Below the pieces are notes generated by a model that was not told where the DNA came from, searched no databases, and was given only the letters and a program-made list of their open reading frames with translations. The position numbers and the translations under genes are program-made. From Schmidtea polychroa (Eukaryota), in contig CM097885.1 in the NCBI GenBank assembly GCA_044892525.1, forward strand, positions 1,738,001 through 1,802,000: DNA of 64,000 nucleotides. The letters run 5' to 3'. Positions 1 to 56,424 of the stretch are shown piece by piece; position 1 is the first letter of the stretch; each line of letters opens with the position of its first letter.

Positions 1-5
1 TTAAA

Positions 6-6849: not shown

Positions 6850-6952
6850 ATGAATTGTCAAGTTATTATTCATTCGAACAATATCATTTCAACTGAAGGT
6901 GTTGTTGTCAAAGGATTTGGACGTGGAAGTAAAGAATTAGGAATTCGAACTG
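6850..6952 (+). CDS. RFK: Riboflavin kinase, coding exon 1
   Basis: ATG at 6850 translates MNCQVIIHSNNIISTEGVVVKGFGRGSKELGIRT, matching the RFK G-x-VVxGFGRGSKxLGxPT signature. Then G|GTAATT phase-1 donor. Confidence 0.93.
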
Positions 6953-7870: not shown

Positions 7871-10800
7871 TTTTAAAAATATTAAATTGAACTTTATAAA
7901 TATTTAATTGAATTTTATAAATATTAAATTGAATTTTACAAATATTAAATTGAATTTTATAAATATTTTATTGAATTTTATAAATATTTAATTGAATTTT
8001 ACAAATATTAAATTGAACTTTAAATATTTAATTGAATTTTAAAAATATTAAATTGAATTTTAAAAATATTAAATTGAACTTTATAAATATTTAATTGAAT
8101 TTTATAAATATTAAATTGAATTTTATAAATATTTAATTGAATTTTATAAATATTAAATTGAACTTTATAAATATTAAATTGAATTTTAAAAATATTAAAT
8201 TGAACTTTAATCGATTTTTATAAATATTTAATTGAATTTTACAAATATTTAATTGAACTTTAAATATTTAATTGAATTTTAAAAATATTTAATTGAACTT
8301 TAAATATTTAATTGAATTTTAAAAATATTTAATTGAACTTTAAATATTTAATTGAATTTTAAAAATATTTAATTGAACTTTAAATATTTAATTGAATTTT
8401 AAAAATATTAAATTGAACTTTATAAATATTTAATTGAATTTTATAAATATTAAATTGAATTTTATAAATATTAAATTGAACTTTATAAATATTAAATTGA
8501 ATTTTAAAAATATTAAATTGAACTTTAATCGATTTTTATAAATATTTAATTGAATTTTACAAATATTAAATTGAATTTTATAAATATTTAATTGAATTTT
8601 ACAAATATTAAATTGAATTTTACAAATATTAAATTGAATTTTAAAAATATTAAATTGAATTTTATAAATATTAAATTGAATTTTATAAATATTTAATTGA
8701 ATTTTATAAATATTTAATTGAATTTTAAAAATATTAAATTGAACTTTATAAATATTAAATTGAATTTTAAAAATATTTAATTGAACTTTATAAATATTTA
8801 ATTGAATTTTATAAATATTAAATTGAACTTTATAAATATTAAATTGAATTTTAAAAATATTAAATTGAACTTTAATCGATTTTTATAAATATTTAATTGA
8901 ATTTTACAAATATTTAATTGAACTTTAAATATTTAATTGAATTTTAAAAATATTTAATTGAACTTTAATTGATTTTTAAAAATATTAAATTGAATTTTAT
9001 AAATATTTAATTGAATTTTACAAATATTTAATTGAATTTTATAAATATTTAATTGAATTTTAAAAATATTAAATTGAACTTTAATCGATTTTTATAAATA
9101 TTTAATTGAATTTTACAAATATTAAATTGAATTTTATAAATATTTAATTGAATTTTACAAATATTAAATTGAATTTTACAAATATTAAATTGAATTTTAA
9201 AAATATTAAATTGAATTTTATAAATATTAAATTGAATTTTATAAATATTTAATTGAACTTTAATCGATTTTTATAAATATTTAATTGAATTTTACAAATA
9301 TTTAATTGAACTTTAAATATTTAATTGAATTTTAAAAATATTTAATTGAACTTTAAATATTTAATTGAATTTTAAAAATATTTAATTGAACTTTAAATAT
9401 TAAATTGAATTTTAAAAATATTTAATTGAACTTTAAATATTTAATTGAATTTTAAAAATATTAAATTGAACTTTATAAATATTTAATTGAATTTTATAAA
9501 TATTAAATTGAATTTTATAAATATTAAATTGAACTTTATAAATATTAAATTGAATTTTAAAAATATTAAATTGAACTTTATAAATATTAAATTGAATTTT
9601 AAAAATATTAAATTGAACTTTAATCGATTTTTATAAATATTTAATTGAATTTTACAAATATTAAATTGAATTTTATAAATATTTAATTGAATTTTACAAA
9701 TATTAAATTGAATTTTACAAATATTAAATTGAATTTTATAAATATTAAATTGAATTTTATAAATATTTAATTGAATTTTATAAATATTTAATTGAATTTT
9801 AAAAATATTAAATTGAACTTTATAAATATTAAATTGAATTTTAAAAATATTTAATTGAACTTTATAAATATTTAATTGAATTTTATAAATATTAAATTGA
9901 ACTTTATAAATATTAAATTGAATTTTAAAAATATTAAATTGAACTTTAATCGATTTTTATAAATATTTAATTGAATTTTACAAATATTTAATTGAACTTT
10001 AAATATTTAATTGAATTTTAAAAATATTTAATTGAACTTTAAATATTTAATTGAATTTTAAAAATATTTAATTGAACTTTAAATATTTAATTGAATTTTA
10101 AAAATATTTAATTGAACTTTAAATATTTAATTGAATTTTAAAAATATTTAATTGAACTTTAATTGATTTTTAAAAATATTAAATTGAATTTTATAAATAT
10201 TTAATTGAATTTTACAAATATTTAATTGAATTTTATAAATATTTAATTGAATTTTAAAAATATTAAATTGAACTTTAATCGATTTTTATAAATATTTAAT
10301 TGAATTTTACAAATATTAAATTGAATTTTATAAATATTTAATTGAATTTTACAAATATTAAATTGAATTTTACAAATATTAAATTGAATTTTAAAAATAT
10401 TAAATTGAATTTTATAAATATTAAATTGAATTTTATAAATATTTAATTGAATTTTAAAAATATTAAATTGAACTTTATAAATATTAAATTGAATTTTAAA
10501 AATATTTAATTGAACTTTATAAATATTAAATTGAATTTTAAAAATATTAAATTGAACTTTAATCGATTTTTATAAATATTTAATTGAATTTTACAAATAT
10601 TTAATTGAACTTTAAATATTTAATTGAATTTTAAAAATATTTAATTGAACTTTAAATATTTAATTGAATTTTAAAAATATTTAATTGAACTTTAATTGAT
10701 TTTTAAAAATATTAAATTGAATTTTATAAATATTTAATTGAATTTTACAAATATTTAATTGAATTTTATAAATATTTAATTGAATTTTAAAAATATTAAA

Positions 10801-13800
10801 TTGAACTTTAATCGATTTTTATAAATATTTAATTGAATTTTACAAATATTAAATTGAATTTTATAAATATTTAATTGAATTTTACAAATATTAAATTGAA
10901 TTTTACAAATATTAAATTGAATTTTAAAAATATTAAATTGAATTTTATAAATATTAAATTGAATTTTATAAATATTTAATTGAATTTTAAAAATATTAAA
11001 TTGAACTTTATAAATATTAAATTGAATTTTAAAAATATTTAATTGAACTTTATAAATATTAAATTGAATTTTAAAAATATTAAATTGAACTTTAATCGAT
11101 TTTTATAAATATTTAATTGAATTTTACAAATATTTAATTGAACTTTAAATATTTAATTGAATTTTAAAAATATTTAATTGAACTTTAAATATTTAATTGA
11201 ATTTTAAAAATATTTAATTGAACTTTAATTGATTTTTAAAAATATTAAATTGAATTTTATAAATATTTAATTGAATTTTACAAATATTTAATTGAATTTT
11301 ATAAATATTTAATTGAATTTTAAAAATATTAAATTGAACTTTAATCGATTTTTATAAATATTTAATTGAATTTTACAAATATTAAATTGAATTTTATAAA
11401 TATTTAATTGAATTTTACAAATATTAAATTGAATTTTACAAATATTAAATTGAATTTTAAAAATATTAAATTGAATTTTATAAATATTAAATTGAATTTT
11501 ATAAATATTTAATTGAATTTTAAAAATATTAAATTGAACTTTATAAATATTAAATTGAATTTTAAAAATATTAAATTGAACTTTAATCGATTTTTATAAA
11601 TATTTAATTGAATTTTACAAATATTTAATTGAACTTTAAATATTTAATTGAATTTTAAAAATATTTAATTGAACTTTAAATATTTAATTGAATTTTAAAA
11701 ATATTTAATTGAACTTTAAATATTTAATTGAATTTTAAAAATATTTAATTGAACTTTAAATATTTAATTGAATTTTAAAAATATTTAATTGAACTTTAAT
11801 TGATTTTTAAAAATATTAAATTGAATTTTATAAATATTTAATTGAATTTTACAAATATTTAATTGAATTTTATAAATATTTAATTGAATTTTAAAAATAT
11901 TAAATTGAACTTTAATCGATTTTTATAAATATTTAATTGAATTTTACAAATATTAAATTGAATTTTATAAATATTTAATTGAATTTTACAAATATTAAAT
12001 TGAATTTTACAAATATTAAATTGAATTTTAAAAATATTAAATTGAATTTTATAAATATTAAATTGAATTTTATAAATATTTAATTGAATTTTAAAAATAT
12101 TAAATTGAACTTTATAAATATTAAATTGAATTTTAAAAATATTTAATTGAACTTTATAAATATTAAATTGAATTTTAAAAATATTAAATTGAACTTTAAT
12201 CGATTTTTATAAATATTTAATTGAATTTTACAAATATTTAATTGAACTTTAAATATTTAATTGAATTTTAAAAATATTTAATTGAACTTTAAATATTTAA
12301 TTGAATTTTAAAAATATTTAATTGAACTTTAATTGATTTTTAAAAATATTAAATTGAATTTTATAAATATTTAATTGAATTTTACAAATATTTAATTGAA
12401 TTTTATAAATATTTAATTGAATTTTAAAAATATTAAATTGAACTTTAATCGATTTTTATAAATATTTAATTGAATTTTACAAATATTAAATTGAATTTTA
12501 TAAATATTTAATTGAATTTTACAAATATTAAATTGAATTTTACAAATATTAAATTGAATTTTAAAAATATTAAATTGAATTTTATAAATATTAAATTGAA
12601 TTTTATAAATATTTAATTGAATTTTAAAAATATTAAATTGAACTTTATAAATATTAAATTGAATTTTAAAAATATTTAATTGAACTTTATAAATATTAAA
12701 TTGAATTTTAAAAATATTAAATTGAACTTTAATCGATTTTTATAAATATTTAATTGAATTTTACAAATATTTAATTGAACTTTAAATATTTAATTGAATT
12801 TTAAAAATATTTAATTGAACTTTAAATATTTAATTGAATTTTAAAAATATTTAATTGAACTTTAATTGATTTTTAAAAATATTAAATTGAATTTTATAAA
12901 TATTTAATTGAATTTTACAAATATTTAATTGAATTTTATAAATATTTAATTGAATTTTAAAAATATTAAATTGAACTTTAATCGATTTTTATAAATATTT
13001 AATTGAATTTTACAAATATTAAATTGAATTTTATAAATATTTAATTGAATTTTACAAATATTAAATTGAATTTTACAAATATTAAATTGAATTTTAAAAA
13101 TATTAAATTGAATTTTATAAATATTAAATTGAATTTTATAAATATTTAATTGAATTTTAAAAATATTAAATTGAACTTTAATCGATTTTTATAAATATTT
13201 AATTGAATTTTACAAATATTTAATTGAACTTTAAATATTTAATTGAATTTTAAAAATATTTAATTGAACTTTATAAATATTAAATTGAATTTTAAAAATA
13301 TTAAATTGAACTTTATAAATATTAAATTGAATTTTAAAAATATTAAATTGAACTTTAATCGATTTTTATAAATATTTAATTGAATTTTACAAATATTAAA
13401 TTGAATTTTATAAATATTTAATTGAATTTTACAAATATTAAATTGAATTTTACAAATATTAAATTGAATTTTAAAAATATTCAATTGAATTTTATAAATA
13501 TTAAATTGAATTTTATAAATATTTAATTGAATTTTATAAATATTTAATTGAATTTTAAAAATATTAAATTGAACTTTATAAATATTAAATTGAATTTTAA
13601 AAATATTTAATTGAACTTTATAAATATTTAATTGAATTTTATAAATATTAAATTGAACTTTATAAATATTAAATTGAATTTTAAAAATATTAAATTGAAC
13701 TTTAATCGATTTTTATAAATATTTAATTGAATTTTACAAATATTTAATTGAACTTTAAATATTTAATTGAATTTTAAAAATATTTAATTGAACTTTAAAT

Positions 13801-16800
13801 ATTTAATTGAATTTTAAAAATATTTAATTGAACTTTAAATATTTAATTGAATTTTAAAAATATTTAATTGAACTTTAAATATTTAATTGAATTTTAAAAA
13901 TATTTAATTGAACTTTAAATATTTAATTGAATTTTAAAAATATTTAATTGAACTTTAATTGATTTTTAAAAATATTAAATTGAATTTTATAAATATTTAA
14001 TTGAATTTTACAAATATTTAATTGAATTTTATAAATATTTAATTGAATTTTAAAAATATTAAATTGAACTTTAATCGATTTTTATAAATATTTAATTGAA
14101 TTTTACAAATATTAAATTGAATTTTATAAATATTTAATTGAATTTTACAAATATTAAATTGAATTTTACAAATATTAAATTGAATTTTAAAAATATTAAA
14201 TTGAATTTTATAAATATTAAATTGAATTTTATAAATATTTAATTGAATTTTAAAAATATTAAATTGAACTTTATAAATATTAAATTGAATTTTAAAAATA
14301 TTTAATTGAACTTTATAAATATTTAATTGAATTTTATAAATATTAAATTGAACTTTATAAATATTAAATTGAATTTTAAAAATATTAAATTGAACTTTAA
14401 TCGATTTTTATAAATATTTAATTGAATTTTACAAATATTTAATTGAACTTTAAATATTTAATTGAATTTTAAAAATATTTAATTGAACTTTAAATATTTA
14501 ATTGAATTTTAAAAATATTTAATTGAACTTTAATTGATTTTTAAAAATATTAAATTGAATTTTATAAATATTAAATTGAACTTTATAAATATTAAATTGA
14601 ATTTTAAAAATATTAAATTGAACTTTAATCGATTTTTATAAATATTTAATTGAATTTTACAAATATTTAATTGAACTTTAAATATTTAATTGAATTTTAA
14701 AAATATTTAATTGAACTTTAAATATTTAATTGAATTTTAAAAATATTTAATTGAACTTTAAATATTTAATTGAATTTTAAAAATATTTAATTGAACTTTA
14801 AATATTTAATTGAATTTTAAAAATATTTAATTGAACTTTAATTGATTTTTAAAAATATTAAATTGAATTTTATAAATATTTAATTGAATTTTACAAATAT
14901 TTAATTGAATTTTATAAATATTTAATTGAATTTTAAAAATATTAAATTGAACTTTAATCGATTTTTATAAATATTTAATTGAATTTTACAAATATTAAAT
15001 TGAATTTTATAAATATTTAATTGAATTTTACAAATATTAAATTGAATTTTACAAATATTAAATTGAATTTTAAAAATATTAAATTGAATTTTATAAATAT
15101 TAAATTGAATTTTATAAATATTTAATTGAATTTTAAAAATATTAAATTGAACTTTATAAATATTAAATTGAATTTTAAAAATATTTAATTGAACTTTATA
15201 AATATTTAATTGAATTTTATAAATATTAAATTGAACTTTATAAATATTAAATTGAATTTTAAAAATATTAAATTGAACTTTAATCGATTTTTATAAATAT
15301 TTAATTGAATTTTACAAATATTTAATTGAACTTTAAATATTTAATTGAATTTTAAAAATATTTAATTGAACTTTAAATATTTAATTGAATTTTAAAAATA
15401 TTTAATTGAACTTTAAATATTTAATTGAATTTTAAAAATATTTAATTGAACTTTAAATATTTAATTGAATTTTAAAAATATTTAATTGAACTTTAAATAT
15501 TTAATTGAATTTTATAAATATTTAATTGAATTTTACAAATATTAAATTGAATTTTACAAATATTAAATTGAATTTTAAAAATATTCAATTGAATTTTATA
15601 AATATTAAATTGAATTTTATAAATATTTAATTGAATTTTATAAATATTTAATTGAATTTTAAAAATATTAAATTGAACTTTATAAATATTAAATTGAATT
15701 TTAAAAATATTTAATTGAACTTTATAAATATTTAATTGAATTTTATAAATATTAAATTGAACTTTATAAATATTAAATTGAATTTTAAAAATATTAAATT
15801 GAACTTTAATCGATTTTTATAAATATTTAATTGAATTTTACAAATATTTAATTGAACTTTAAATATTTAATTGAATTTTAAAAATATTTAATTGAACTTT
15901 AAATATTTAATTGAATTTTAAAAATATTTAATTGAACTTTAAATATTTAATTGAATTTTAAAAATATTTAATTGAACTTTAAATATTTAATTGAATTTTA
16001 AAAATATTTAATTGAACTTTAAATATTTAATTGAATTTTAAAAATATTTAATTGAACTTTAATTGATTTTTAAAAATATTAAATTGAATTTTATAAATAT
16101 TTAATTGAATTTTACAAATATTTAATTGAATTTTATAAATATTTAATTGAATTTTAAAAATATTAAATTGAACTTTAATCGATTTTTATAAATATTTAAT
16201 TGAATTTTACAAATATTAAATTGAATTTTATAAATATTTAATTGAATTTTACAAATATTAAATTGAATTTTACAAATATTAAATTGAATTTTAAAAATAT
16301 TAAATTGAATTTTATAAATATTAAATTGAATTTTATAAATATTTAATTGAATTTTAAAAATATTAAATTGAACTTTATAAATATTAAATTGAATTTTAAA
16401 AATATTTAATTGAACTTTATAAATATTTAATTGAATTTTATAAATATTAAATTGAACTTTATAAATATTAAATTGAATTTTAAAAATATTAAATTGAACT
16501 TTAATCGATTTTTATAAATATTTAATTGAATTTTACAAATATTTAATTGAACTTTAAATATTTAATTGAATTTTATAAATATTAAATTGAACTTTATAAA
16601 TATTAAATTGAATTTTAAAAATATTAAATTGAACTTTAATCGATTTTTATAAATATTTAATTGAATTTTACAAATATTTAATTGAACTTTAAATATTTAA
16701 TTGAATTTTAAAAATATTTAATTGAACTTTAAATATTTAATTGAATTTTAAAAATATTTAATTGAACTTTAAATATTTAATTGAATTTTAAAAATATTTA

Positions 16801-19800
16801 ATTGAACTTTAAATATTTAATTGAATTTTAAAAATATTTAATTGAACTTTAAATATTTAATTGAATTTTATAAATATTTAATTGAATTTTACAAATATTA
16901 AATTGAATTTTACAAATATTAAATTGAATTTTAAAAATATTCAATTGAATTTTATAAATATTAAATTGAATTTTATAAATATTTAATTGAATTTTATAAA
17001 TATTTAATTGAATTTTAAAAATATTAAATTGAACTTTATAAATATTAAATTGAATTTTAAAAATATTTAATTGAACTTTATAAATATTTAATTGAATTTT
17101 ATAAATATTAAATTGAACTTTATAAATATTAAATTGAATTTTAAAAATATTAAATTGAACTTTAATCGATTTTTATAAATATTTAATTGAATTTTACAAA
17201 TATTTAATTGAACTTTAAATATTTAATTGAATTTTAAAAATATTTAATTGAACTTTAAATATTTAATTGAATTTTAAAAATATTTAATTGAACTTTAAAT
17301 ATTTAATTGAATTTTAAAAATATTTAATTGAACTTTAAATATTTAATTGAATTTTAAAAATATTTAATTGAACTTTAAATATTTAATTGAATTTTAAAAA
17401 TATTTAATTGAACTTTAATTGATTTTTAAAAATATTAAATTGAATTTTATAAATATTTAATTGAATTTTACAAATATTTAATTGAATTTTATAAATATTT
17501 AATTGAATTTTAAAAATATTAAATTGAACTTTAATCGATTTTTATAAATATTTAATTGAATTTTACAAATATTAAATTGAATTTTATAAATATTTAATTG
17601 AATTTTACAAATATTAAATTGAATTTTACAAATATTAAATTGAATTTTAAAAATATTAAATTGAATTTTATAAATATTAAATTGAATTTTATAAATATTT
17701 AATTGAATTTTAAAAATATTAAATTGAACTTTATAAATATTAAATTGAATTTTAAAAATATTTAATTGAACTTTATAAATATTTAATTGAATTTTATAAA
17801 TATTAAATTGAACTTTATAAATATTAAATTGAATTTTAAAAATATTAAATTGAACTTTAATCGATTTTTATAAATATTTAATTGAATTTTACAAATATTA
17901 AATTGAATTTTACAAATATTAAATTGAATTTTAAAAATATTAAATTGAATTTTATAAATATTAAATTGAATTTTATAAATATTTAATTGAATTTTAAAAA
18001 TATTAAATTGAACTTTATAAATATTAAATTGAATTTTAAAAATATTTAATTGAACTTTATAAATATTTAATTGAATTTTATAAATATTAAATTGAACTTT
18101 ATAAATATTAAATTGAATTTTAAAAATATTAAATTGAACTTTAATCGATTTTTATAAATATTTAATTGAATTTTACAAATATTTAATTGAACTTTAAATA
18201 TTTAATTGAATTTTAAAAATATTTAATTGAACTTTAAATATTTAATTGAATTTTAAAAATATTTAATTGAACTTTAAATATTTAATTGAATTTTAAAAAT
18301 ATTTAATTGAACTTTAAATATTTAATTGAATTTTAAAAATATTTAATTGAACTTTAAATATTTAATTGAATTTTATAAATATTTAATTGAATTTTACAAA
18401 TATTAAATTGAATTTTACAAATATTAAATTGAATTTTAAAAATATTCAATTGAATTTTATAAATATTAAATTGAATTTTATAAATATTTAATTGAATTTT
18501 ATAAATATTTAATTGAATTTTAAAAATATTAAATTGAACTTTATAAATATTAAATTGAATTTTAAAAATATTTAATTGAACTTTATAAATATTTAATTGA
18601 ATTTTATAAATATTAAATTGAACTTTATAAATATTAAATTGAATTTTAAAAATATTAAATTGAACTTTAATCGATTTTTATAAATATTTAATTGAATTTT
18701 ACAAATATTTAATTGAACTTTAAATATTTAATTGAATTTTAAAAATATTTAATTGAACTTTAAATATTTAATTGAATTTTAAAAATATTTAATTGAACTT
18801 TAAATATTTAATTGAATTTTAAAAATATTTAATTGAACTTTAAATATTTAATTGAATTTTAAAAATATTTAATTGAACTTTAAATATTTAATTGAATTTT
18901 AAAAATATTTAATTGAACTTTAATTGATTTTTAAAAATATTAAATTGAATTTTATAAATATTTAATTGAATTTTACAAATATTTAATTGAATTTTATAAA
19001 TATTTAATTGAATTTTAAAAATATTAAATTGAACTTTAATCGATTTTTATAAATATTTAATTGAATTTTACAAATATTAAATTGAATTTTATAAATATTT
19101 AATTGAATTTTACAAATATTAAATTGAATTTTACAAATATTAAATTGAATTTTAAAAATATTAAATTGAATTTTATAAATATTAAATTGAATTTTATAAA
19201 TATTTAATTGAATTTTAAAAATATTAAATTGAACTTTATAAATATTAAATTGAATTTTAAAAATATTTAATTGAACTTTATAAATATTTAATTGAATTTT
19301 ATAAATATTAAATTGAACTTTATAAATATTAAATTGAATTTTAAAAATATTAAATTGAACTTTAATCGATTTTTATAAATATTTAATTGAATTTTACAAA
19401 TATTTAATTGAACTTTAAATATTTAATTGAATTTTAAAAATATTTAATTGAACTTTAAATATTTAATTGAATTTTAAAAATATTTAATTGAACTTTAATT
19501 GATTTTTAAAAATATTAAATTGAATTTTATAAATATTAAATTGAACTTTATAAATATTAAATTGAATTTTAAAAATATTAAATTGAACTTTAATCGATTT
19601 TTATAAATATTTAATTGAATTTTACAAATATTAAATTGAATTTTATAAATATTTAATTGAATTTTACAAATATTAAATTGAATTTTACAAATATTAAATT
19701 GAATTTTAAAAATATTAAATTGAATTTTATAAATATTAAATTGAATTTTATAAATATTTAATTGAATTTTAAAAATATTAAATTGAACTTTATAAATATT

Positions 19801-22800
19801 AAATTGAATTTTAAAAATATTTAATTGAACTTTAATCGATTTTTATAAATATTTAATTGAATTTTACAAATATTAAATTGAATTTTATAAATATTTAATT
19901 GAATTTTACAAATATTAAATTGAATTTTACAAATATTAAATTGAATTTTAAAAATATTAAATTGAATTTTATAAATATTAAATTGAATTTTATAAATATT
20001 TAATTGAATTTTAAAAATATTAAATTGAACTTTATAAATATTAAATTGAATTTTAAAAATATTTAATTGAACTTTATAAATATTTAATTGAATTTTATAA
20101 ATATTAAATTGAACTTTATAAATATTAAATTGAATTTTATAAATATTTAATTGAATTTTAAAAATATTAAATTGAACTTTATAAATATTAAATTGAATTT
20201 TAAAAATATTTAATTGAACTTTATAAATATTTAATTGAATTTTATAAATATTAAATTGAACTTTATAAATATTAAATTGAATTTTAAAAATATTAAATTG
20301 AACTTTAATCGATTTTTATAAATATTTAATTGAATTTTACAAATATTTAATTGAACTTTAAATATTTAATTGAATTTTAAAAATATTTAATTGAACTTTA
20401 AATATTTAATTGAATTTTAAAAATATTTAATTGAACTTTAAATATTTAATTGAATTTTAAAAATATTTAATTGAACTTTAAATATTTAATTGAATTTTAA
20501 AAATATTTAATTGAACTTTAAATATTTAATTGAATTTTAAAAATATTTAATTGAACTTTAAATATTTAATTGAATTTTAAAAATATTTAATTGAACTTTA
20601 AATATTTAATTGAATTTTAAAAATATTTAATTGAACTTTAAATATTTAATTGAATTTTAAAAATATTTAATTGAACTTTAATTGATTTTTAAAAATATTT
20701 AATTGAATTTTACAAATATTAAATTGAATTTTACAAATATTAAATTGAGTTTTAAAAATATTAAATTGAATTTTATAAATATTAAATTGAATTTTATAAA
20801 TATTTAATTGAATTTTAAAAATATTTAATTGAACTTTAAATATTTAATTGAATTTTAAAAATATTTAATTGAACTTTAATTGATTTTTAAAAATATTAAA
20901 TTGAATTTTAAAAATATTAAATTGAATTTTAAAAATATTTAATTGAACTTTATAAATATTTAATTGAATTTTATAAATATTAAATTGAACTTTATAAATA
21001 TTAAATTGAATTTTATAAATATTTAATTGAATTTTAAAAATATTAAATTGAACTTTATAAATATTAAATTGAATTTTAAAAATATTTAATTGAACTTTAT
21101 AAATATTTAATTGAATTTTATAAATATTAAATTGAACTTTATAAATATTAAATTGAATTTTAAAAATATTAAATTGAACTTTAATCGATTTTTATAAATA
21201 TTTAATTGAATTTTACAAATATTTAATTGAACTTTAAATATTTAATTGAATTTTAAAAATATTTAATTGAACTTTAAATATTTAATTGAATTTTAAAAAT
21301 ATTTAATTGAACTTTAAATATTTAATTGAATTTTAAAAATATTTAATTGAACTTTAAATATTTAATTGAATTTTAAAAATATTTAATTGAACTTTAAATA
21401 TTTAATTGAATTTTAAAAATATTTAATTGAACTTTAAATATTTAATTGAATTTTAAAAATATTTAATTGAACTTTAAATATTTAATTGAATTTTAAAAAT
21501 ATTTAATTGAACTTTAAATATTTAATTGAATTTTAAAAATATTTAATTGAACTTTAATTGATTTTTAAAAATATTTAATTGAATTTTACAAATATTAAAT
21601 TGAATTTTACAAATATTAAATTGAATTTTAAAAATATTAAATTGAATTTTATAAATATTAAATTGAATTTTATAAATATTTAATTGAATTTTAAAAATAT
21701 TTAATTGAACTTTAAATATTTAATTGAATTTTAAAAATATTAAATTGAACTTTATAAATATTAAATTGAATTTTAAAAATATTTAATTGAACTTTATAAA
21801 TATTTAATTGAATTTTAAAAATATTAAATTGAACTTTAATCGATTTTTATAAATATTTAATTGAATTTTACAAATATTTAATTGAACTTTAAATATTTAA
21901 TTGAATTTTAAAAATATTTAATTGAACTTTAAATATTTAATTGAATTTTAAAAATATTTAATTGAACTTTAATTGATTTTTAAAAATATTAAATTGAATT
22001 TTATAAATATTTAATTGAATTTTACAAATATTTAATTGAATTTTATAAATATTTAATTGAATTTTAAAAATATTAAATTGAACTTTAATCGATTTTTATA
22101 AATATTTAATTGAATTTTACAAATATTAAATTGAATTTTATAAATATTTAATTGAATTTTACAAATATTAAATTGAATTTTACAAATATTAAATTGAATT
22201 TTAAAAATATTAAATTGAATTTTATAAATATTAAATTGAATTTTATAAATATTTAATTGAATTTTAAAAATATTAAATTGAACTTTATAAATATTAAATT
22301 GAATTTTAAAAATATTAAATTGAACTTTAATCGATTTTTATAAATATTTAATTGAATTTTACAAATATTTAATTGAACTTTAAATATTAAATTGAATTTT
22401 AAAAATATTAAATTGAACTTTATAAATATTAAATTGAATTTTAAAAATATTAAATTGAACTTTAATCGATTTTTATAAATATTTAATTGAATTTTACAAA
22501 TATTAAATTGAATTTTATAAATATTTAATTGAATTTTACAAATATTAAATTGAATTTTACAAATATTAAATTGAATTTTAAAAATATTAAATTGAATTTT
22601 ATAAATATTAAATTGAATTTTATAAATATTTAATTGAATTTTATAAATATTTAATTGAATTTTAAAAATATTAAATTGAACTTTATAAATATTAAATTGA
22701 ATTTTAAAAATATTTAATTGAACTTTATAAATATTTAATTGAATTTTATAAATATTAAATTGAACTTTATAAATATTAAATTGAATTTTAAAAATATTAA

Positions 22801-34800: not shown

Positions 34801-37800
34801 AATTTTAAAAATATTTAATTGAACTTTAAATATTTAATTGAATTTTAAAAATATTTAATTGAACTTTAATTGATTTTTAAAAATATTAAATTGAATTTTA
34901 TAAATATTTAATTGAATTTTACAAATATTTAATTGAATTTTATAAATATTTAATTGAATTTTAAAAATATTAAATTGAACTTTAATCGATTTTTATAAAT
35001 ATTTAATTGAATTTTACAAATATTAAATTGAATTTTATAAATATTTAATTGAATTTTACAAATATTAAATTGAATTTTACAAATATTAAATTGAATTTTA
35101 AAAATATTAAATTGAATTTTATAAATATTAAATTGAATTTTATAAATATTTAATTGAATTTTAAAAATATTAAATTGAACTTTATAAATATTAAATTGAA
35201 TTTTAAAAATATTAAATTGAACTTTAATCGATTTTTATAAATATTTAATTGAATTTTACAAATATTTAATTGAACTTTAAATATTTAATTGAATTTTAAA
35301 AATATTTAATTGAACTTTAAATATTTAATTGAATTTTAAAAATATTTAATTGAACTTTAAATATTTAATTGAATTTTAAAAATATTTAATTGAACTTTAA
35401 ATATTTAATTGAATTTTAAAAATATTAAATTGAACTTTATAAATATTTAATTGAATTTTATAAATATTAAATTGAATTTTATAAATATTAAATTGAATTT
35501 AATAAATATTAAATTGAATTTTAAAAATATTAAATTGAACTTTAATCGATTTTTATAAATATTTAATTGAATTTTACAAATATTAAATTGAATTTTAAAA
35601 ATATTTAATTGAATTTTACAAATATTAAATTGAATTTTACAAATATTAAATTGAATTTTAAAAATATGAAATTGAATTTTATAAATATTAAATTGAATTT
35701 TATAAATATTTAATTGAATTTTATAAATATTTAATTGAATTTTAAAAATATTAAATTGAACTTTATAAATATTAAATTGAATTTTAAAAATATTTAATTG
35801 AACTTTATAAATATTTAATTGAATTTTATAAATATTAAATTGAACTTTATAAATATTAAATTGAATTTTAAAAATATTAAATTGAACTTTAATCGATTTT
35901 TATAAATATTTAATTGAATTTTACAAATATTTAATTGAACTTTAAATATTTAATTGAATTTTAAAAATATTTAATTGAACTTTAAATATTTAATTGAATT
36001 TTAAAAATATTTAATTGAACTTTAATTGATTTTTAAAAATATTAAATTGAATTTTATAAATATTTAATTGAATTTTACAAATATTTAATTGAATTTTATA
36101 AATATTTAATTGAATTTTAAAAATATTAAATTGAACTTTAATCGATTTTTATAAATATTTAATTGAATTTTACAAATATTAAATTGAATTTTATAAATAT
36201 TTAATTGAATTTTACAAATATTAAATTGAATTTTACAAATATTAAATTGAATTTTAAAAATATTAAATTGAATTTTATAAATATTAAATTGAATTTTATA
36301 AATATTTAATTGAATTTTAAAAATATTAAATTGAACTTTATAAATATTAAATTGAATTTTAAAAATATTTAATTGAACTTTATAAATATTTAATTGAATT
36401 TTATAAATATTAAATTGAACTTTATAAATATTAAATTGAATTTTAAAAATATTAAATTGAACTTTAAAAATATTAAATTGAATTTTATAAATATTAAATT
36501 GAATTTTATAAATATTTAATTGAATTTTATAAATATTTAATTGAATTTTAAAAATATTAAATTGAACTTTATAAATATTAAATTGAATTTTAAAAATATT
36601 TAATTGAACTTTATAAATATTTAATTGAATTTTATAAATATTAAATTGAACTTTATAAATATTAAATTGAATTTTAAAAATATTAAATTGAACTTTAATC
36701 GATTTTTATAAATATTTAATTGAATTTTACAAATATTTAATTGAACTTTAAATATTTAATTGAATTTTAAAAATATTTAATTGAACTTTAAATATTTAAT
36801 TGAATTTTAAAAATATTTAATTGAACTTTAATTGATTTTTAAAAATATTAAATTGAATTTTATAAATATTAAATTGAACTTTATAAATATTAAATTGAAT
36901 TTTAAAAATATTAAATTGAACTTTAATCGATTTTTATAAATATTTAATTGAATTTTACAAATATTAAATTGAATTTTATAAATATTTAATTGAATTTTAC
37001 AAATATTAAATTGAATTTTACAAATATTAAATTGAATTTTAAAAATATTAAATTGAATTTTATAAATATTAAATTGAATTTTATAAATATTTAATTGAAT
37101 TTTAAAAATATTAAATTGAACTTTATAAATATTAAATTGAATTTTAAAAATATTTAATTGAACTTTAATCGATTTTTATAAATATTTAATTGAATTTTAC
37201 AAATATTTAATTGAACTTTAAATATTTAATTGAATTTTAAAAATATTTAATTGAACTTTAAATATTTAATTGAATTTTAAAAATATTTAATTGAACTTTA
37301 ATTGATTTTTAAAAATATTAAATTGAATTTTATAAATATTTAATTGAATTTTACAAATATTTAATTGAATTTTATAAATATTAAATTGAATTTTAAAAAT
37401 ATTTAATTGAATTTTACAAATATTAAATTGAATTTTACAAATATTAAATTGAATTTTAAAAATATGAAATTGAATTTTATAAATATTAAATTGAATTTTA
37501 TAAATATTTAATTGAATTTTATAAATATTTAATTGAATTTTAAAAATATTAAATTGAACTTTATAAATATTAAATTGAATTTTAAAAATATTTAATTGAA
37601 CTTTATAAATATTTAATTGAATTTTATAAATATTAAATTGAACTTTATAAATATTAAATTGAATTTTAAAAATATTAAATTGAACTTTAATCGATTTTTA
37701 TAAATATTTAATTGAATTTTACAAATATTTAATTGAACTTTAAATATTTAATTGAATTTTAAAAATATTTAATTGAACTTTAAATATTTAATTGAATTTT

Positions 37801-40800
37801 AAAAATATTTAATTGAACTTTAATTGATTTTTAAAAATATTAAATTGAATTTTATAAATATTTAATTGAATTTTACAAATATTTAATTGAATTTTATAAA
37901 TATTTAATTGAATTTTAAAAATATTAAATTGAACTTTAATCGATTTTTATAAATATTTAATTGAATTTTACAAATATTAAATTGAATTTTATAAATATTT
38001 AATTGAATTTTACAAATATTAAATTGAATTTTACAAATATTAAATTGAATTTTAAAAATATTAAATTGAATTTTATAAATATTAAATTGAATTTTATAAA
38101 TATTTAATTGAATTTTAAAAATATTAAATTGAACTTTATAAATATTAAATTGAATTTTAAAAATATTTAATTGAACTTTATAAATATTTAATTGAATTTT
38201 ATAAATATTTAATTGAATTTTAAAAATATTAAATTGAACTTTATAAATATTAAATTGAATTTTAAAAATATTTAATTGAACTTTATAAATATTTAATTGA
38301 ATTTTATAAATATTAAATTGAACTTTATAAATATTAAATTGAATTTTAAAAATATTAAATTGAACTTTAATCGATTTTTATAAATATTTAATTGAATTTT
38401 ACAAATATTTAATTGAACTTTAAATATTTAATTGAATTTTAAAAATATTTAATTGAACTTTAAATATTTAATTGAATTTTAAAAATATTTAATTGAACTT
38501 TAATTGATTTTTAAAAATATTAAATTGAATTTTATAAATATTAAATTGAACTTTATAAATATTAAATTGAATTTTAAAAATATTAAATTGAACTTTAATC
38601 GATTTTTATAAATATTTAATTGAATTTTACAAATATTAAATTGAATTTTATAAATATTTAATTGAATTTTACAAATATTAAATTGAATTTTACAAATATT
38701 AAATTGAATTTTAAAAATATTAAATTGAATTTTATAAATATTAAATTGAATTTTATAAATATTTAATTGAATTTTAAAAATATTAAATTGAACTTTATAA
38801 ATATTAAATTGAATTTTAAAAATATTTAATTGAACTTTAATCGATTTTTATAAATATTTAATTGAATTTTACAAATATTTAATTGAACTTTAAATATTTA
38901 ATTGAATTTTAAAAATATTTAATTGAACTTTAAATATTTAATTGAATTTTAAAAATATTTAATTGAACTTTAATTGATTTTTAAAAATATTAAATTGAAT
39001 TTTATAAATATTTAATTGAATTTTACAAATATTTAATTGAATTTTATAAATATTTAATTGAATTTTAAAAATATTAAATTGAACTTTAATCGATTTTTAT
39101 AAATATTTAATTGAATTTTACAAATATTAAATTGAATTTTATAAATATTTAATTGAATTTTACAAATATTAAATTGAATTTTACAAATATTAAATTGAAT
39201 TTTAAAAATATTAAATTGAATTTTATAAATATTAAATTGAATTTTATAAATATTTAATTGAATTTTAAAAATATTAAATTGAACTTTATAAATATTAAAT
39301 TGAATTTTAAAAATATTAAATTGAACTTTAATCGATTTTTATAAATATTTAATTGAATTTTACAAATATTTAATTGAACTTTAAATATTTAATTGAATTT
39401 TAAAAATATTTAATTGAACTTTATAAATATTAAATTGAATTTTAAAAATATTAAATTGAACTTTATAAATATTAAATTGAATTTTAAAAATATTAAATTG
39501 AACTTTAATCGATTTTTATAAATATTTAATTGAATTTTACAAATATTAAATTGAATTTTATAAATATTTAATTGAATTTTACAAATATTAAATTGAATTT
39601 TACAAATATTAAATTGAATTTTAAAAATATTAAATTGAACTTTATAAATATTAAATTGAATTTTAAAAATATTTAATTGAACTTTATAAATATTTAATTG
39701 AATTTTATAAATATTAAATTGAACTTTATAAATATTAAATTGAATTTTAAAAATATTAAATTGAACTTTAATCGATTTTTATAAATATTTAATTGAATTT
39801 TACAAATATTTAATTGAACTTTAAATATTTAATTGAATTTTAAAAATATTTAATTGAACTTTAAATATTTAATTGAATTTTAAAAATATTTAATTGAACT
39901 TTAAATATTTAATTGAATTTTAAAAATATTTAATTGAACTTTAAATATTTAATTGAATTTTAAAAATATTTAATTGAACTTTAAATATTTAATTGAATTT
40001 TAAAAATATTTAATTGAACTTTAATTGATTTTTAAAAATATTAAATTGAATTTTATAAATATTTAATTGAATTTTACAAATATTTAATTGAATTTTATAA
40101 ATATTTAATTGAATTTTAAAAATATTAAATTGAACTTTAATCGATTTTTATAAATATTTAATTGAATTTTACAAATATTAAATTGAATTTTATAAATATT
40201 TAATTGAATTTTACAAATATTAAATTGAATTTTACAAATATTAAATTGAATTTTAAAAATATTAAATTGAATTTTATAAATATTAAATTGAATTTTATAA
40301 ATATTTAATTGAATTTTAAAAATATTAAATTGAACTTTATAAATATTAAATTGAATTTTAAAAATATTTAATTGAACTTTATAAATATTTAATTGAATTT
40401 TATAAATATTAAATTGAACTTTATAAATATTAAATTGAATTTTAAAAATATTAAATTGAACTTTAATCGATTTTTATAAATATTTAATTGAATTTTACAA
40501 ATATTTAATTGAACTTTAAATATTTAATTGAATTTTAAAAATATTTAATTGAACTTTAAATATTTAATTGAATTTTAAAAATATTTAATTGAACTTTAAA
40601 TATTTAATTGAATTTTAAAAATATTTAATTGAACTTTAAATATTTAATTGAATTTTAAAAATATTTAATTGAACTTTAAATATTTAATTGAATTTTAAAA
40701 ATATTTAATTGAACTTTAAATATTTAATTGAATTTTAAAAATATTTAATTGAACTTTAAATATTTAATTGAATTTTAAAAATATTTAATTGAACTTTAAA

Positions 40801-43800
40801 TATTTAATTGAATTTTAAAAATATTTAATTGAACTTTAATTGATTTTTAAAAATATTTAATTGAATTTTACAAATATTAAATTGAATTTTACAAATATTA
40901 AATTGAATTTTAAAAATATTAAATTGAATTTTATAAATATTAAATTGAATTTTATAAATATTTAATTGAATTTTATAAATATTTAATTGAATTTTAAAAA
41001 TATTAAATTGAACTTTATAAATATTAAATTGAATTTTAAAAATATTTAATTGAACTTTATAAATATTTAATTGAATTTTAAAAATATTAAATTGAACTTT
41101 AATCGATTTTTATAAATATTTAATTGAATTTTACAAATATTTAATTGAACTTTAAATATTTAATTGAATTTTAAAAATATTTAATTGAACTTTAAATATT
41201 TAATTGAATTTTAAAAATATTTAATTGAACTTTAATTGATTTTTAAAAATATTAAATTGAATTTTATAAATATTTAATTGAATTTTACAAATATTTAATT
41301 GAATTTTATAAATATTTAATTGAATTTTAAAAATATTAAATTGAACTTTAATCGATTTTTATAAATATTTAATTGAATTTTACAAATATTAAATTGAATT
41401 TTATAAATATTTAATTGAATTTTACAAATATTAAATTGAATTTTACAAATATTAAATTGAATTTTAAAAATATTAAATTGAATTTTATAAATATTAAATT
41501 GAATTTTATAAATATTTAATTGAATTTTAAAAATATTAAATTGAACTTTATAAATATTAAATTGAATTTTAAAAATATTAAATTGAACTTTAATCGATTT
41601 TTATAAATATTTAATTGAATTTTACAAATATTTAATTGAACTTTAAATATTTAATTGAATTTTAAAAATATTTAATTGAACTTTATAAATATTAAATTGA
41701 ATTTTAAAAATATTAAATTGAACTTTATAAATATTAAATTGAATTTTAAAAATATTAAATTGAACTTTAATCGATTTTTATAAATATTTAATTGAATTTT
41801 ACAAATATTAAATTGAATTTTACAAATATTAAATTGAATTTTAAAAATATTAAATTGAATTTTATAAATATTAAATTGAATTTTATAAATATTTAATTGA
41901 ATTTTATAAATATTTAATTGAATTTTAAAAATATTAAATTGAACTTTATAAATATTAAATTGAATTTTAAAAATATTTAATTGAACTTTAAATATTTAAT
42001 TGAATTTTAAAAATATTTAATTGAACTTTAAATATTTAATTGAATTTTAAAAATATTTAATTGAACTTTAAATATTTAATTGAATTTTAAAAATATTTAA
42101 TTGAACTTTAAATATTTAATTGAATTTTAAAAATATTTAATTGAACTTTAATTGATTTTTAAAAATATTAAATTGAATTTTATAAATATTTAATTGAATT
42201 TTACAAATATTTAATTGAATTTTATAAATATTTAATTGAATTTTAAAAATATTAAATTGAACTTTAATCGATTTTTATAAATATTTAATTGAATTTTACA
42301 AATATTAAATTGAATTTTATAAATATTTAATTGAATTTTACAAATATTAAATTGAATTTTACAAATATTAAATTGAATTTTAAAAATATTAAATTGAATT
42401 TTATAAATATTAAATTGAATTTTATAAATATTTAATTGAATTTTAAAAATATTAAATTGAACTTTATAAATATTAAATTGAATTTTAAAAATATTAAATT
42501 GAACTTTAATCGATTTTTATAAATATTTAATTGAATTTTACAAATATTTAATTGAACTTTAAATATTTAATTGAATTTTAAAAATATTTAATTGAACTTT
42601 AAATATTTAATTGAATTTTAAAAATATTTAATTGAACTTTAAATATTTAATTGAATTTTAAAAATATTTAATTGAACTTTAAATATTTAATTGAATTTTA
42701 AAAATATTAAATTGAACTTTATAAATATTTAATTGAATTTTATAAATATTAAATTGAATTTTATAAATATTAAATTGAATTTAATAAATATTAAATTGAA
42801 TTTTAAAAATATTAAATTGAACTTTAATCGATTTTTATAAATATTTAATTGAATTTTACAAATATTAAATTGAATTTTAAAAATATTTAATTGAATTTTA
42901 CAAATATTAAATTGAATTTTACAAATATTAAATTGAATTTTAAAAATATGAAATTGAATTTTATAAATATTAAATTGAATTTTATAAATATTTAATTGAA
43001 TTTTATAAATATTTAATTGAATTTTAAAAATATTAAATTGAACTTTATAAATATTAAATTGAATTTTAAAAATATTTAATTGAACTTTATAAATATTTAA
43101 TTGAATTTTATAAATATTAAATTGAACTTTATAAATATTAAATTGAATTTTAAAAATATTAAATTGAACTTTAATCGATTTTTATAAATATTTAATTGAA
43201 TTTTACAAATATTTAATTGAACTTTAAATATTTAATTGAATTTTAAAAATATTTAATTGAACTTTAAATATTTAATTGAATTTTAAAAATATTAAATTGA
43301 ACTTTAATCGATTTTTATAAATATTTAATTGAATTTTACAAATATTAAATTGAATTTTATAAATATTTAATTGAATTTTACAAATATTAAATTGAATTTT
43401 ACAAATATTAAATTGAATTTTAAAAATATTAAATTGAATTTTATAAATATTAAATTGAATTTTATAAATATTTAATTGAATTTTAAAAATATTAAATTGA
43501 ACTTTATAAATATTAAATTGAATTTTAAAAATATTTAATTGAACTTTATAAATATTTAATTGAATTTTATAAATATTAAATTGAACTTTATAAATATTAA
43601 ATTGAATTTTAAAAATATTAAATTGAACTTTAATCGATTTTTATAAATATTTAATTGAATTTTACAAATATTTAATTGAACTTTAAATATTTAATTGAAT
43701 TTTAAAAATATTTAATTGAACTTTAAATATTTAATTGAATTTTAAAAATATTTAATTGAACTTTAAATATTTAATTGAATTTTAAAAATATTTAATTGAA

Positions 43801-46800
43801 CTTTAAATATTTAATTGAATTTTAAAAATATTTAATTGAACTTTAAATATTTAATTGAATTTTAAAAATATTTAATTGAACTTTAAATATTTAATTGAAT
43901 TTTAAAAATATTTAATTGAACTTTAAATATTTAATTGAATTTTAAAAATATTTAATTGAACTTTAAATATTTAATTGAATTTTAAAAATATTTAATTGAA
44001 CTTTAATTGATTTTTAAAAATATTTAATTGAATTTTACAAATATTAAATTGAATTTTACAAATATTAAATTGAATTTTAAAAATATTAAATTGAATTTTA
44101 TAAATATTAAATTGAATTTTATAAATATTTAATTGAATTTTATAAATATTTAATTGAATTTTAAAAATATTAAATTGAACTTTATAAATATTAAATTGAA
44201 TTTTAAAAATATTTAATTGAACTTTATAAATATTTAATTGAATTTTATAAATATTAAATTGAACTTTATAAATATTAAATTGAATTTTAAAAATATTAAA
44301 TTGAACTTTAATCGATTTTTATAAATATTTAATTGAATTTTACAAATATTTAATTGAACTTTAAATATTTAATTGAATTTTAAAAATATTTAATTGAACT
44401 TTAAATATTTAATTGAATTTTAAAAATATTTAATTGAATTTTAAAAATATTTAATTGAACTTTAATTGATTTTTAAAAATATTAAATTGAATTTTATAAA
44501 TATTTAATTGAATTTTACAAATATTAAATTGAATTTTATAAATATTTAATTGAATTTTATAAATATTTAATTGAATTTTAAAAATATTTAATTGAACTTT
44601 AAATATTTAATTGAATTTTAAAAATATTTAATTGAACTTTAAATATTTAATTGAATTTTAAAAATATTTAATTGAACTTTAATTGATTTTTAAAAATATT
44701 AAATTGAATTTTATAAATATTTAATTGAATTTTACAAATATTAAATTGAATTTTATAAATATTAAATTGAATTTTATAAATATTTAATTGAATTTTATAA
44801 ATATTTAATTGAATTTTAAAAAAATTAAATTGAACTTTATAAATATTAAATTGAATTTTAAAAATATTAAATTGAACTTTATAAATATTTAATTGAATTT
44901 TATAAATATTAAATTGAACTTTAAAAATATTAAATTGAACTTTAAATATTTAATTGAATTTTAAAAATATTAAATTGAACTTTACAAATATTTAATTGAA
45001 TTTTATAAATATTTAATTGAATTTTATAAATATTAAATTGAATTTTAAAAATATTAAATTGAACTTTAATTGAATTTTACAAATATTAAATTGAATTTTA
45101 CAAATATTAAATTGAACTTTATAAATATTTAATTGAATTTTATAAATATTAAATTGAATTTTATAAATATTTAATTGAATTTTAAAAATATTAAATTGAA
45201 CTTTATAAATATTTAATTGAATTTTATAAATATTAAATTGAACTTTACAAATATTAAATTGAATTTTATAAATATTAAATTGAATTTTACAAATATTTAA
45301 TTGAATTTTATAAATATTAAATTGAATTTTATAAATATTTAATTGAATTTTAAAAAAATTAAATTGAACTTTACAAATATTAAATTGAATTTTATAAATA
45401 TTAAATTGAATTTTACAAATATTAAATTGAATTTTATAAATATTAAATTGAATTTTATAAATATTTAATTGAATTTTATAAATATTTAATTGAATTTTAA
45501 AAAAATTAAATTGAACTTTATAAATATTAAATTGAATTTTAAAAATATTAAATTGAACTTTATAAATATTTAATTGAATTTTATAAATATTAAATTGAAC
45601 TTTAAAAATATTAAATTGAACTTTAAATATTTAATTGAATTTTAAAAATATTAAATTGAACTTTACAATATTTAATTGAATTTTATAAATATTTAATTGA
45701 ATTTTATAAATATTAAATTGAATTTTAAAAATATTAAATTGAACTTTAATTGAATTTTACAAATATTAAATTGAATTTTACAAATATTAAATTGAACTTT
45801 ATAAATATTTAATTGAATTTTATAAATATTAAATTGAATTTTATAAATATTTAATTGAATTTTAAAAATATTAAATTGAACTTTATAAATATTTAATTGA
45901 ATTTTATAAATATTAAATTGAACTTTACAAATATTAAATTGAATTTTATAAATATTAAATTGAATTTTACAAATATTTAATTGAATTTTATAAATATTAA
46001 ATTGAATTTTACAAATATTTAATTGAATTTTATAAATATTAAATTGAATTTTACAAATATTTAATTGAACTTTAAATATTTAATTGAATTTTACAAATAT
46101 TTAATTGAACTTTAAATATTAAATTGAATTTTACAAATATTTAATTGAACTTTACAAATTGAATTTTACAAATATTTAATTGAACTTTACAAATTGAATT
46201 TTACAAATATTTAATTGAACTTTAAATATTAAATTGAATTTTACGAATATTTAATTTAACTTTAAATATTAAATTAAATTTTACGAATATTTAATTTAAC
46301 TTTAAATATTTAATTGAATTTTAAAAATATTTAATTGAACTTTAAATATTTAATTGAATTTTAAAAATATTTAATTGAACTTTAAATATTTAATTGAATT
46401 TTACAAATATTTAATTGAACTTTAAATATTAAATTGAATTTTACAAATATTTAATTGAACTTTAAATATTAAATTGAATTTTACAAATATTTAATTGAAC
46501 TTTAAATATTAAATTGAATTTTAAAAATATTTAATTGAACTTTAAATATTAAATTGAATTTTACAAATATTTAATTGAACTTTAAATATTAAATTGAATT
46601 TTAAAAATATTTAATTTAACTTTAAATATTTAATTGAATTTTAAAAATATTTAATTGAATTTTAAAAATATTTAATTGAACTTTAAATATTTAATTGAAT
46701 TTTAAAAATATTTAATTGAACTTTAAATATTTAATTGAATTTAAAAATATTTAATTGAACTTTAAATATTTAATTGAATTTTAAAAATATTTAATTGAAC

Positions 46801-47248
46801 TTTAATTGATTTTTAAAAATATTAAATTGAATTTTATAAATATTTAATTGAATTTTACAAATATTAAATTGAATTTTATAAATATTAAATTGAATTTTAT
46901 AAATATTTAATTGAATTTTATAAATATTTAATTGAATTTTAAAAAAATTAAATTGAACTTTATAAATATTAAATTGAATTTTAAAAATATTAAATTGAAC
47001 TTTATAAATATTTAATTGAATTTTATAAATATTAAATTGAACTTTATAAATATTAAATTGAATTTTAAAAATATTAAATTGAACTTTAATCGATTTTTAT
47101 AAATATTTAATTGAATTTTACAAATATTAAATTGAATTTTATAAATATTTAATTGAATTTTACAAATATTAAATTGAATTTTACAAATATTAAATTGAAT
47201 TTTAAAAATATTAAATTGAACTTTATAAATATTAAATTGAATTTAAAA
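7871..47248. repeat. ~39.4-kb AT-rich tandem satellite; basic unit 21 bp AATTGAA(T/C)TTTA(T/A/C)AAATATT(A/T), with 19-bp and 32-bp variant units
   Basis: Directly visible head-to-tail array in one orientation with no insertions seen. Variants AATTGAACTTTAAATATTT (19) and AATTGAACTTTAAT(C/T)GATTTTTA(T/A)AAATATT(T/A) (32). Roughly 1,900 units, estimated from length. Confidence 0.99.
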
Positions 47249-47357
47249 CCCTGTAAAAGTTTATAATTAAAATTAAAATTTGGGATATTTTATAAAATAC
47301 CTAAAACAATTAATATATAAAAATAAATTAAAAAAAAATATATTTAAAAACACATTT

Positions 47358-56420: not shown

Positions 56421-56424
<4 letters not shown>

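What the first reader, a model, noticed from the sequence alone, without database searches (positions are those of the whole stretch)
7871..47248. Sense strand of the intronic satellite is essentially devoid of GT and AG dinucleotides
Seen: on the + (RFK-transcribed) strand G occurs only as TGA or CGA, so neither a donor GT nor an acceptor AG is formed. Reading by eye I found one exception in 39 kb (TTGAGT, 20748-20750). The opposite strand has many hundreds of AAAGTT (from AACTTT) and donor-like TTGTAAAA (from TTTTACAA). The variants that spread (C, TC, ATG, TTA) also create no GT or AG. Inference: the array is invisible to the spliceosome in this orientation, which could explain why it was free to expand inside an intron. 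Caveat: for a single array the orientation is a coin toss.
Basis: partly seen in the sequence, partly recalled or inferred. Interest (0 to 1): 0.7.

Follow-up and report, generated by a model that had tools for sequence, protein, structure and literature searches.

The report
Satellite-filled intron lacking splice signals
A 39-kb AT-rich repeat fills the first intron of a riboflavin kinase gene and has almost no GT or AG on the read strand, but this most likely follows by chance from its single short repeat unit, which probably grew out of a broken transposon, and is not a sign of splice avoidance.

Summary
The count is right. The + strand of 7871-47248 has 1 GT and 1 AG (both at 20748-20750); the - strand has 912 GT and 612 AG. 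The array lies in the 49,581-bp intron 1 of an intact riboflavin kinase gene.

The pattern is not beyond chance. The 1,979 units are 34 variants of one ~21-mer with a single G in TGA. A neutral simulation gives a GT/AG-free sense strand 10-28% of the time. Only 3 new-G variants exist, too few to test selection. The flipped strand has no YAG and no GT[AG]AG either. The rest of the same intron has 487 GT and 402 AG. Drosophila giant introns carry GU- or AG-rich satellites in sense (papers).

New here: the array begins 13 bp upstream of a multi-copy, probably Tc1/IS630-like transposase remnant, and ends in a candidate TA|CAGGG terminus. A diverged copy elsewhere also runs into the repeat. It is likely a transposon-internal repeat expanded in place. 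No earlier scan note covered this.

The parts
6850..6952 (+). Riboflavin kinase (RFK) coding exon 1; donor CTG|GTAATT, phase 1. An acceptor-like TTTGCAG ends at 6847.
   Evidence: Pfam PF01687 E=0.014, below cut-off alone; 84% identical to P0001 residues 1-37; covered by contigs of X8 and X9
6953..56533 (+). RFK intron 1, 49,581 bp, GT..AG, phase-compatible
   Evidence: exon 1-exon 2 junction in one X9 contig, whose loose end equals 56541-56570
7577..7857 (-). 5' remnant of a multi-copy, probably Tc1/mariner/IS630-type transposase gene: two in-frame stops, a frameshift near 7661, no 3' part. Its first codon reads ATA here and ATG in other copies.
   Evidence: Pfam HTH_SB E=0.012 and HTH_24 E=0.0036, both below cut-off; Atlas leads of 0.84-0.87 to Tc1/Tc3/SB HTH clusters; several diverged contigs, with 7855 T>C in 9 X1, 8 X5 and 2 X8 contigs
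7871..47248 (+). Tandem array, 92% AT, 1,979 G-to-G units of 34 types (13 types make 1,913), basic unit 19-21 bp, with higher-order blocks and exact internal duplications up to 3,051 bp. Sense strand has 1 GT and 1 AG.
20748..20750 (+). The single AG and single GT of the array's + strand (one substitution; weak in both roles)
   Evidence: U1 pairing -2.1 kcal/mol and G before the AG
47249..47255 (-). Candidate transposon 5' end: reads TA|CAGGG directly into the first repeat unit. The partner end and second TA were not found.
   Evidence: sequence; no CAGGG in 6953-7870; TA target from PMC2581405 passages; the CAG(G) start is recalled
56534..56685 (+). RFK exon 2
   Evidence: Pfam PF01687 E=4.8e-07
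56733..56835 (+). RFK exon 3 (after a 47-bp intron)
   Evidence: Pfam PF01687 E=4.5e-07
57436..57554 (+). RFK exon 4 with stop codon (after a 600-bp intron)
   Evidence: 95% identical to P0001 residues 120-158

Best explanation
The GT/AG-free sense strand is real but is likely a by-product of one AT-rich ~21-bp unit with a single G in TGA, copied about 2,000 times, and the array probably grew in place from a short repeat at the 5' end of a broken Tc1/mariner-like transposon lying antisense in intron 1 of the riboflavin kinase gene. Shown: the counts, the unit make-up, the gene model, a multi-copy remnant next to the array, and a diverged copy that also runs into the repeat. Inferred: (a) the element inserted antisense and lost its 3' part; (b) slippage and unequal exchange amplified its repeat block recently, given multi-kb exact duplications; (c) the intron is removed by the ordinary flanking GT..AG sites, and the array is neutral filler for the spliceosome. 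The lack of splice dinucleotides is at most permissive. The orientation was set by the insertion.
For: 1,077 of 1,979 units are GT/AG-free on both strands; the C-free 21-mers have no G at all on -. Neutral P(sense free) is 0.10-0.28. The - strand has no YAG and no GT[AG]AG and only weak U1 pairing. The same intron tolerates 487 GT and 402 AG in its other 10.2 kb. The array starts 13 bp from the remnant's first codon, which is ATG in other copies. X1 contig 8 (7809-7925, 11 other letters and 3 gaps in 116) is a diverged copy that bridges remnant and repeat; X5 contig 15 (7696-7904) bridges too. The far end reads TA|CAGGG on the same strand. Exact duplications of 1-3 kb, 41 of at least 40 units. 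Published precedent for repeats amplifying inside DNA transposons: Tetris TIR-220 and Tc1/mariner MITE miDNA4. Published giant introns with GU- or AG-bearing sense satellites.
Against: All three C-bearing variants that are common sit on +, and no new G became common (two-sided p=0.25). A 10-28% chance is not large, so a weak filter is not excluded. The transposase call is weak: Pfam below cut-off, Atlas under 0.9, and no relative. The spliced contig comes from another sample than the window, so splicing across a 39-kb allele is not shown. Array length rests on the assembly.
Confidence: 0.68

Rival explanations
1. Splice-silence filter: the array could reach 39 kb inside this gene only because its sense strand offers no donor or acceptor; the opposite orientation or GT/AG-making variants would be purged.
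For: 1 GT and 1 AG on + against 912 and 612 on -. Common new C variants but no common new G variants on +. A repeated cryptic site would be multiplied hundreds of times, unlike scattered decoys (inference).
Against: Chance level is 0.10-0.28. The - strand sites are poor. The test on variants has n=3. kl-5 intron RNA is detected with an (AAGAC)6 probe, so I infer GUCUU in sense (PMC6508621 passages). AAGAG-strand-specific RNAi lowers ORY, kl-2 and Pzl, which the authors ascribe to intronic AAGAG (10.1101/2025.01.10.632443 passages).
Confidence: 0.17
2. Polyadenylation filter instead of splicing filter: what matters is premature cleavage, and the present orientation is the less poly(A)-like one.
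For: + has 787 ATTAAA and 0 TGTA; - has 1,179 ATTAAA and 298 TGTA. With no GT, + also has no GU-rich downstream element. Intronic AATAAA is counter-selected across eukaryotes (PMC5499120 passages). The role of UGUA and GU-rich elements is recalled.
Against: AATAAA is equally rare on both strands (3 and 4), and 74-91% of shuffled monomers lack it. 787 ATTAAA remain on +. [quoted passage not shown] One array only.
Confidence: 0.07
3. The array is an independent satellite that landed in, or was carried into, the intron next to an unrelated repeat remnant; GT/AG absence is again a by-product.
For: The transposase identity is weak and no second end was found. One X8 contig matches only 7871-7906 with unrelated flanks. 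No flanking duplication is visible.
Against: A diverged copy bridges remnant and repeat in X1, and a contig of another study (X5) bridges as well. The array lies exactly between a TA|CAGGG end and the first codon, on one strand.
Confidence: 0.08

Closest known systems
Satellite-filled gigantic introns of Drosophila Y-linked genes kl-3, kl-5, ORY, kl-2 and autosomal Pzl (PMC6508621, PMC11207136, PMC6508613, 10.1101/2025.01.10.632443)
   Same: A simple tandem repeat makes up most of an intron flanked by ordinary splice sites. The kl-3 AATAT satellite is also AT-only and so free of GT and AG.
   Different: Those are hundreds of kb to Mb, testis-specific, with 5-bp units, and some carry GU or AG in sense. 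This is 39 kb of a ~21-bp unit with higher-order blocks in a metabolic gene. No dedicated expression programme is shown here.
Satellite arrays amplified inside DNA transposons: Tetris TIR-220 of Drosophila virilis (PMC4079207) and the Tc1/mariner MITE miDNA4 of Xenopus (as reviewed in PMC12628747, PMC9659126)
   Same: A tandem repeat that is part of a DNA transposon amplifies in place into a long homogeneous array and leaves a disrupted element.
   Different: Here the unit is about 21 bp, the array is about 2,000 units (up to 66 for TIR-220), it abuts a transposase-like start and sits in a host intron. Full element copies were not available to confirm the anatomy.
IS630/Tc1/mariner DNA transposons (features as in PMC2581405)
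   Same: N-terminal helix-turn-helix-like remnant, multiple dispersed copies, a TA next to a candidate end.
   Different: Only about 280 bp of coding remnant and one candidate end survive; no catalytic domain, no paired TIRs and no duplicated TA could be shown.

Membership tests
Satellite-filled giant intron | Array lies between two exons of one intact gene with canonical, phase-compatible splice sites | tested here: met
Satellite-filled giant intron | Flanking exons are joined in RNA | tested here: met
   1 X9 contig joins exon 1 to exon 2; the run is guessed to be RNA and is another sample than the window
Satellite-filled giant intron | The full-length array itself is transcribed and spliced out in the allele that carries it | not testable with these tools
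   only contigs of other samples are available
Splice-silent (selected) array | GT/AG absence on the sense strand exceeds what the monomer and its variants give by chance | tested here: not met
   P 0.10-0.28; 0.25-0.38 per monomer
Splice-silent (selected) array | GT/AG-creating variants are depleted | tested here: inconclusive
   1 of 3 new-G classes against 69% expected, P=0.23
Splice-silent (selected) array | The opposite orientation carries credible splice sites | tested here: not met
   0 YAG, 0 GT[AG]AG, U1 pairing -1.2 to -1.9 kcal/mol; 300 GTAA do occur
Splice-silent (selected) array | Orientation bias among intronic arrays of the family | not testable with these tools
   no genome held; 0 hits in metagenome contigs
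IS630/Tc1/mariner transposon | Transposase with N-terminal HTH | tested here: inconclusive
   Pfam HTH_SB E=0.012, below cut-off; Atlas leads 0.84-0.87; no hit
IS630/Tc1/mariner transposon | DDE/D catalytic domain | tested here: inconclusive
   not present in this truncated copy (translation); full copies not available
IS630/Tc1/mariner transposon | Paired terminal inverted repeats and duplicated TA | tested here: inconclusive
   one candidate end at 47249-47255; no partner in 6953-7870, as expected if the copy is truncated
IS630/Tc1/mariner transposon | Dispersed multiple copies | tested here: met
   several contigs with distinct letters over about 7577-7870 in X1, X5 and X8
Transposon-internal repeat amplified to satellite | Other copies of the element carry the same repeat at the same place | tested here: inconclusive
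   1 diverged X1 contig and 1 X5 contig bridge remnant and repeat among the 25 pieces listed (880 not shown); the X5 one may be the same locus

The most novel reading that the evidence does not exclude
RNA-processing silence is a gate on satellite growth in genes. A transposon family scatters the same short repeat into introns in both orientations, and only copies whose sense strand lacks GT and AG can swell to tens of kb. In the present allele RNA polymerase would cross 39 kb with about 790 AUUAAA and no U1 docking site, a natural test of whether telescripting is needed in long introns.
Probability: 0.12. Interest if true: 0.55.

Novelty: new member of a known kind. Interest (0 to 1): 0.2.

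Why it matters
As it stands this is an ordinary lesson: a dinucleotide absence over 39 kb of tandem repeat is one observation, not 39,000. Satellite-filled introns and satellites born inside transposons are both described. The locus is still useful. If the repeat travels with a multi-copy transposon, the genome holds many independent insertions of the same repeat in either orientation, which would make the splice-silence idea testable by a simple count. The allele also offers 39 kb of pre-mRNA without any 5' splice-site-like sequence.

Tried and rejected
Whole-genome test of orientation: no genome is held. Satellite pattern in metagenome contigs: 0 matches. Relatives of the transposase remnant: none (0 of 6 candidates; 0 of 373 stretches; 0 at E<=0.001; 38-aa query). 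These are short, broken queries, so the blanks are weak. No RNA holder is listed on record; X8 and X9 are guessed RNA. An alternative exon 1 closer to exon 2: a motif scan and tblastn found none. The remnant is not similar to the IS630-like ORF at 60342. No monomer-like copy lies elsewhere in the window. The letter-shuffle null was rejected as the wrong unit. Summed contig depth was not used as a copy number. Of the 13 other tandem repeats in the window, 5 are GT/AG-free on + and 6 on -; of the 4 in intron 1, 2 carry GT on +; too few and too short to test. Earlier scan notes held nothing on this array. Paper searches for the splice-silence idea showed no listing that states it; only listings were seen, so this does not show it is unpublished. 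A hint that Y-loop satellites are always AG-free in sense (PMC6879302 passages) was dropped. Supplements were not read; probe sequences in them could bear on the strand inferred for kl-5.
Full report
Observation. A script count over 7871-47248 gives 1 GT (20749), 1 AG (20748) and no GC or GG on the + strand. Of 1,980 G, 1,864 are in TGA, 115 in CGA and 1 in AGT. The - strand has 912 GT and 612 AG, with 612 AAAGTT and 289 TTGTAAAA.

The gene. Four exons (6850-6952, 56534-56685, 56733-56835, 57436-57554) with GT..AG introns of 49,581, 47 and 600 bp give 158 codons and one terminal stop. Exons 1-3 hit Pfam Flavokinase (E 0.014, 4.8e-07, 4.5e-07; exon 4 no hit). An unnamed 158-aa relative, P0001, aligns colinearly to all four exons, including across the exon 1-2 join. 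In one search, the one X9 contig laid covers 6875-6959 and its loose end equals window 56541-56570, which is the spliced exon 1-2 junction. An X8 contig covers 6847-6959 the same way; its loose end was not listed. These runs are guessed to be RNA and share a variant (6885) with X5, not X1, so they come from another allele. The array is intronic. That a 39-kb allele is transcribed and spliced is not shown.

The array. It is 92% AT and has 1,979 G-to-G units of 34 types; 13 types make up 1,913. The basic unit is 19-21 bp with one G in TGA. Units form higher-order blocks, with 41 exact repeats of at least 40 units and the longest 3,051 bp. I read this as recent amplification by slippage and unequal exchange (inference). 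Its length rests on the assembly.

Is it more than chance? Against shuffled letters about 900 of each dinucleotide are expected, but the array is one unit copied. Shuffling each of the 13 commonest monomers gives a GT/AG-free + strand in 25-38% of cases, and 1,077 of 1,979 units are free on both strands. I simulated a random monomer of this composition in random orientation with six common substitutions and two deletions. The sense strand was free in 28%, 17% or 10% of runs, for 30%, 50% or 70% of changes going to G or C. For the variants, 69% of possible changes to G on + would create GT or AG. Three new-G classes are seen (AGT once, CGA twice, ATGA five times; the last read as T>G by inference), and one of them does: P(1 or fewer of 3) = 0.23. 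Four C classes are seen, three common, against no common new G (two-sided p = 0.25).

Would the other orientation be worse? The - strand has no YAG, while all four acceptor-type sites of the gene are YAG. It has no GT[AG]AG. Its GT contexts pair with the U1 5' motif (recalled) at -1.2 to -1.9 kcal/mol, against -4.3, -5.1 and -8.8 for the real donors. It does hold 300 GTAA. The other 10,203 bp of the same intron contain 487 GT and 402 AG; 23 of 485 scored GT sites match or beat the true donor, and 48 YAG sites have a pyrimidine tract. The gene already tolerates real decoys. The array is also not invisible to all RNA processing: + has 787 ATTAAA and 3 AATAAA, - has 1,179 and 4. [quoted passage not shown]

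What the literature says. Satellite-filled giant introns are known from Drosophila (PMC6508613, first part of text; PMC11207136, passages). kl-5 intron RNA is detected with an (AAGAC)6 probe (PMC6508621, passages), from which I infer GUCUU in sense. AAGAG-strand-specific RNAi lowers ORY, kl-2 and Pzl, which the authors ascribe to intronic AAGAG (10.1101/2025.01.10.632443, passages). So neither GT nor AG absence is required for an intronic satellite to grow large. Four searches (listings only) showed no paper stating the splice-silence idea, which does not prove it is unpublished.

Where the array came from. Left of the array, the - strand reads as a broken ORF with two stops and a frameshift. 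It gives weak helix-turn-helix hits (Pfam HTH_SB E=0.012 and HTH_24 E=0.0036, below cut-off) and Atlas leads of 0.84-0.87 to Sleeping Beauty, Tc3 and homeodomain-like clusters. Six other searches found no relative, so the family call is a lead only. In one search the stretch from about 7577 to 7870 is covered by several contigs with distinct letters in X1, X5 and X8, so it is multi-copy. The codon at 7857-7855 reads ATA here, and 9 X1, 8 X5 and 2 X8 contigs carry the change at 7855 that reads ATG. The array starts 13 bp upstream of that codon. X1 contig 8 (7809-7925; 11 other letters and 3 gaps in 116) is a diverged copy that runs from the remnant into the repeat; X5 contig 15 (7696-7904) bridges too but may be the same locus. 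Only 25 pieces were listed, 880 were not. At the far end the - strand reads TA, CAGGG, then the first unit (47255-47249). TA is the mariner target (PMC2581405, passages); the CAG(G) start is recalled. Amplification of repeats inside DNA transposons is described for Tetris (PMC4079207, abstract and section 20) and miDNA4 (PMC12628747 and PMC9659126, passages).

Mechanism. Most likely a Tc1/mariner-like element with a short AT-rich repeat between its 5' end and its start codon inserted antisense into RFK intron 1, lost its 3' part, and its repeat grew to 39 kb. The spliceosome uses the normal flanking sites. The missing GT and AG come with the monomer; they are permissive at most, and the orientation was set by the insertion. 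Shown: counts, unit make-up, gene model, multi-copy remnant, one diverged bridging copy. Inferred: element identity, order of events, neutrality. Confidence 0.68; splice filter 0.17; independent satellite 0.08; poly(A) filter 0.07.

Verdict. Observation confirmed, interpretation only partly supported. It is a new member of known kinds (satellite-filled intron, transposon-born satellite). Interest 0.2. The orientation test across other copies could not be run without the genome and remains the way to settle the selective reading.

Noticed in passing
window 2644-5124 (-), 5581-5628, 5667-5671: hAT-type transposase split into three ORFs (Pfam Dimer_Tnp_hAT E=1.1e-12, DUF4371 E=1.4e-13) just upstream of RFK, with a GC-rich palindrome and a candidate CAGGG end at 5667-5671. 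Many contigs cover 5400-5870. No partner end was found in 1-3000.
   Followed up: partly
window 6846-6849: RFK's ATG is preceded by an acceptor-like TTTGCAG, and the X8 contig has 20 unaligned letters before 6847: an upstream UTR exon or a trans-spliced leader. The letters were not listed.
   Followed up: no
window 49026-49337 (-) and 51788-52048 (-): Further mobile-element debris in intron 1: a hAT C-terminal fragment (E=0.0024) and a retroelement protease-like fragment (E=0.066).
   Followed up: no
window 60342-60860 (+): IS630-like transposase fragment (NCBIfam NF033545 E=0.0033, below cut-off), unrelated to the remnant beside the array.
   Followed up: partly
window 6850-6952: RFK has Arg where most homologues have Pro in the G-x-P-T-A-N motif: 116 of 120 listed proteins have P, 3 have R including P0001. 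Shared with the relative, so not a sign of decay.
   Followed up: yes
window 46000-46800: The array's right end has a different unit mix, with loss of the TGA G in a few units and both CGA-from-CAA variants; most singleton variants lie near the two ends, as expected for less homogenised edges.
   Followed up: no
window 7218-7269: A 22-bp intronic tandem repeat with 4 GT on the sense strand; X5 lacks one 22-bp unit.
   Followed up: no
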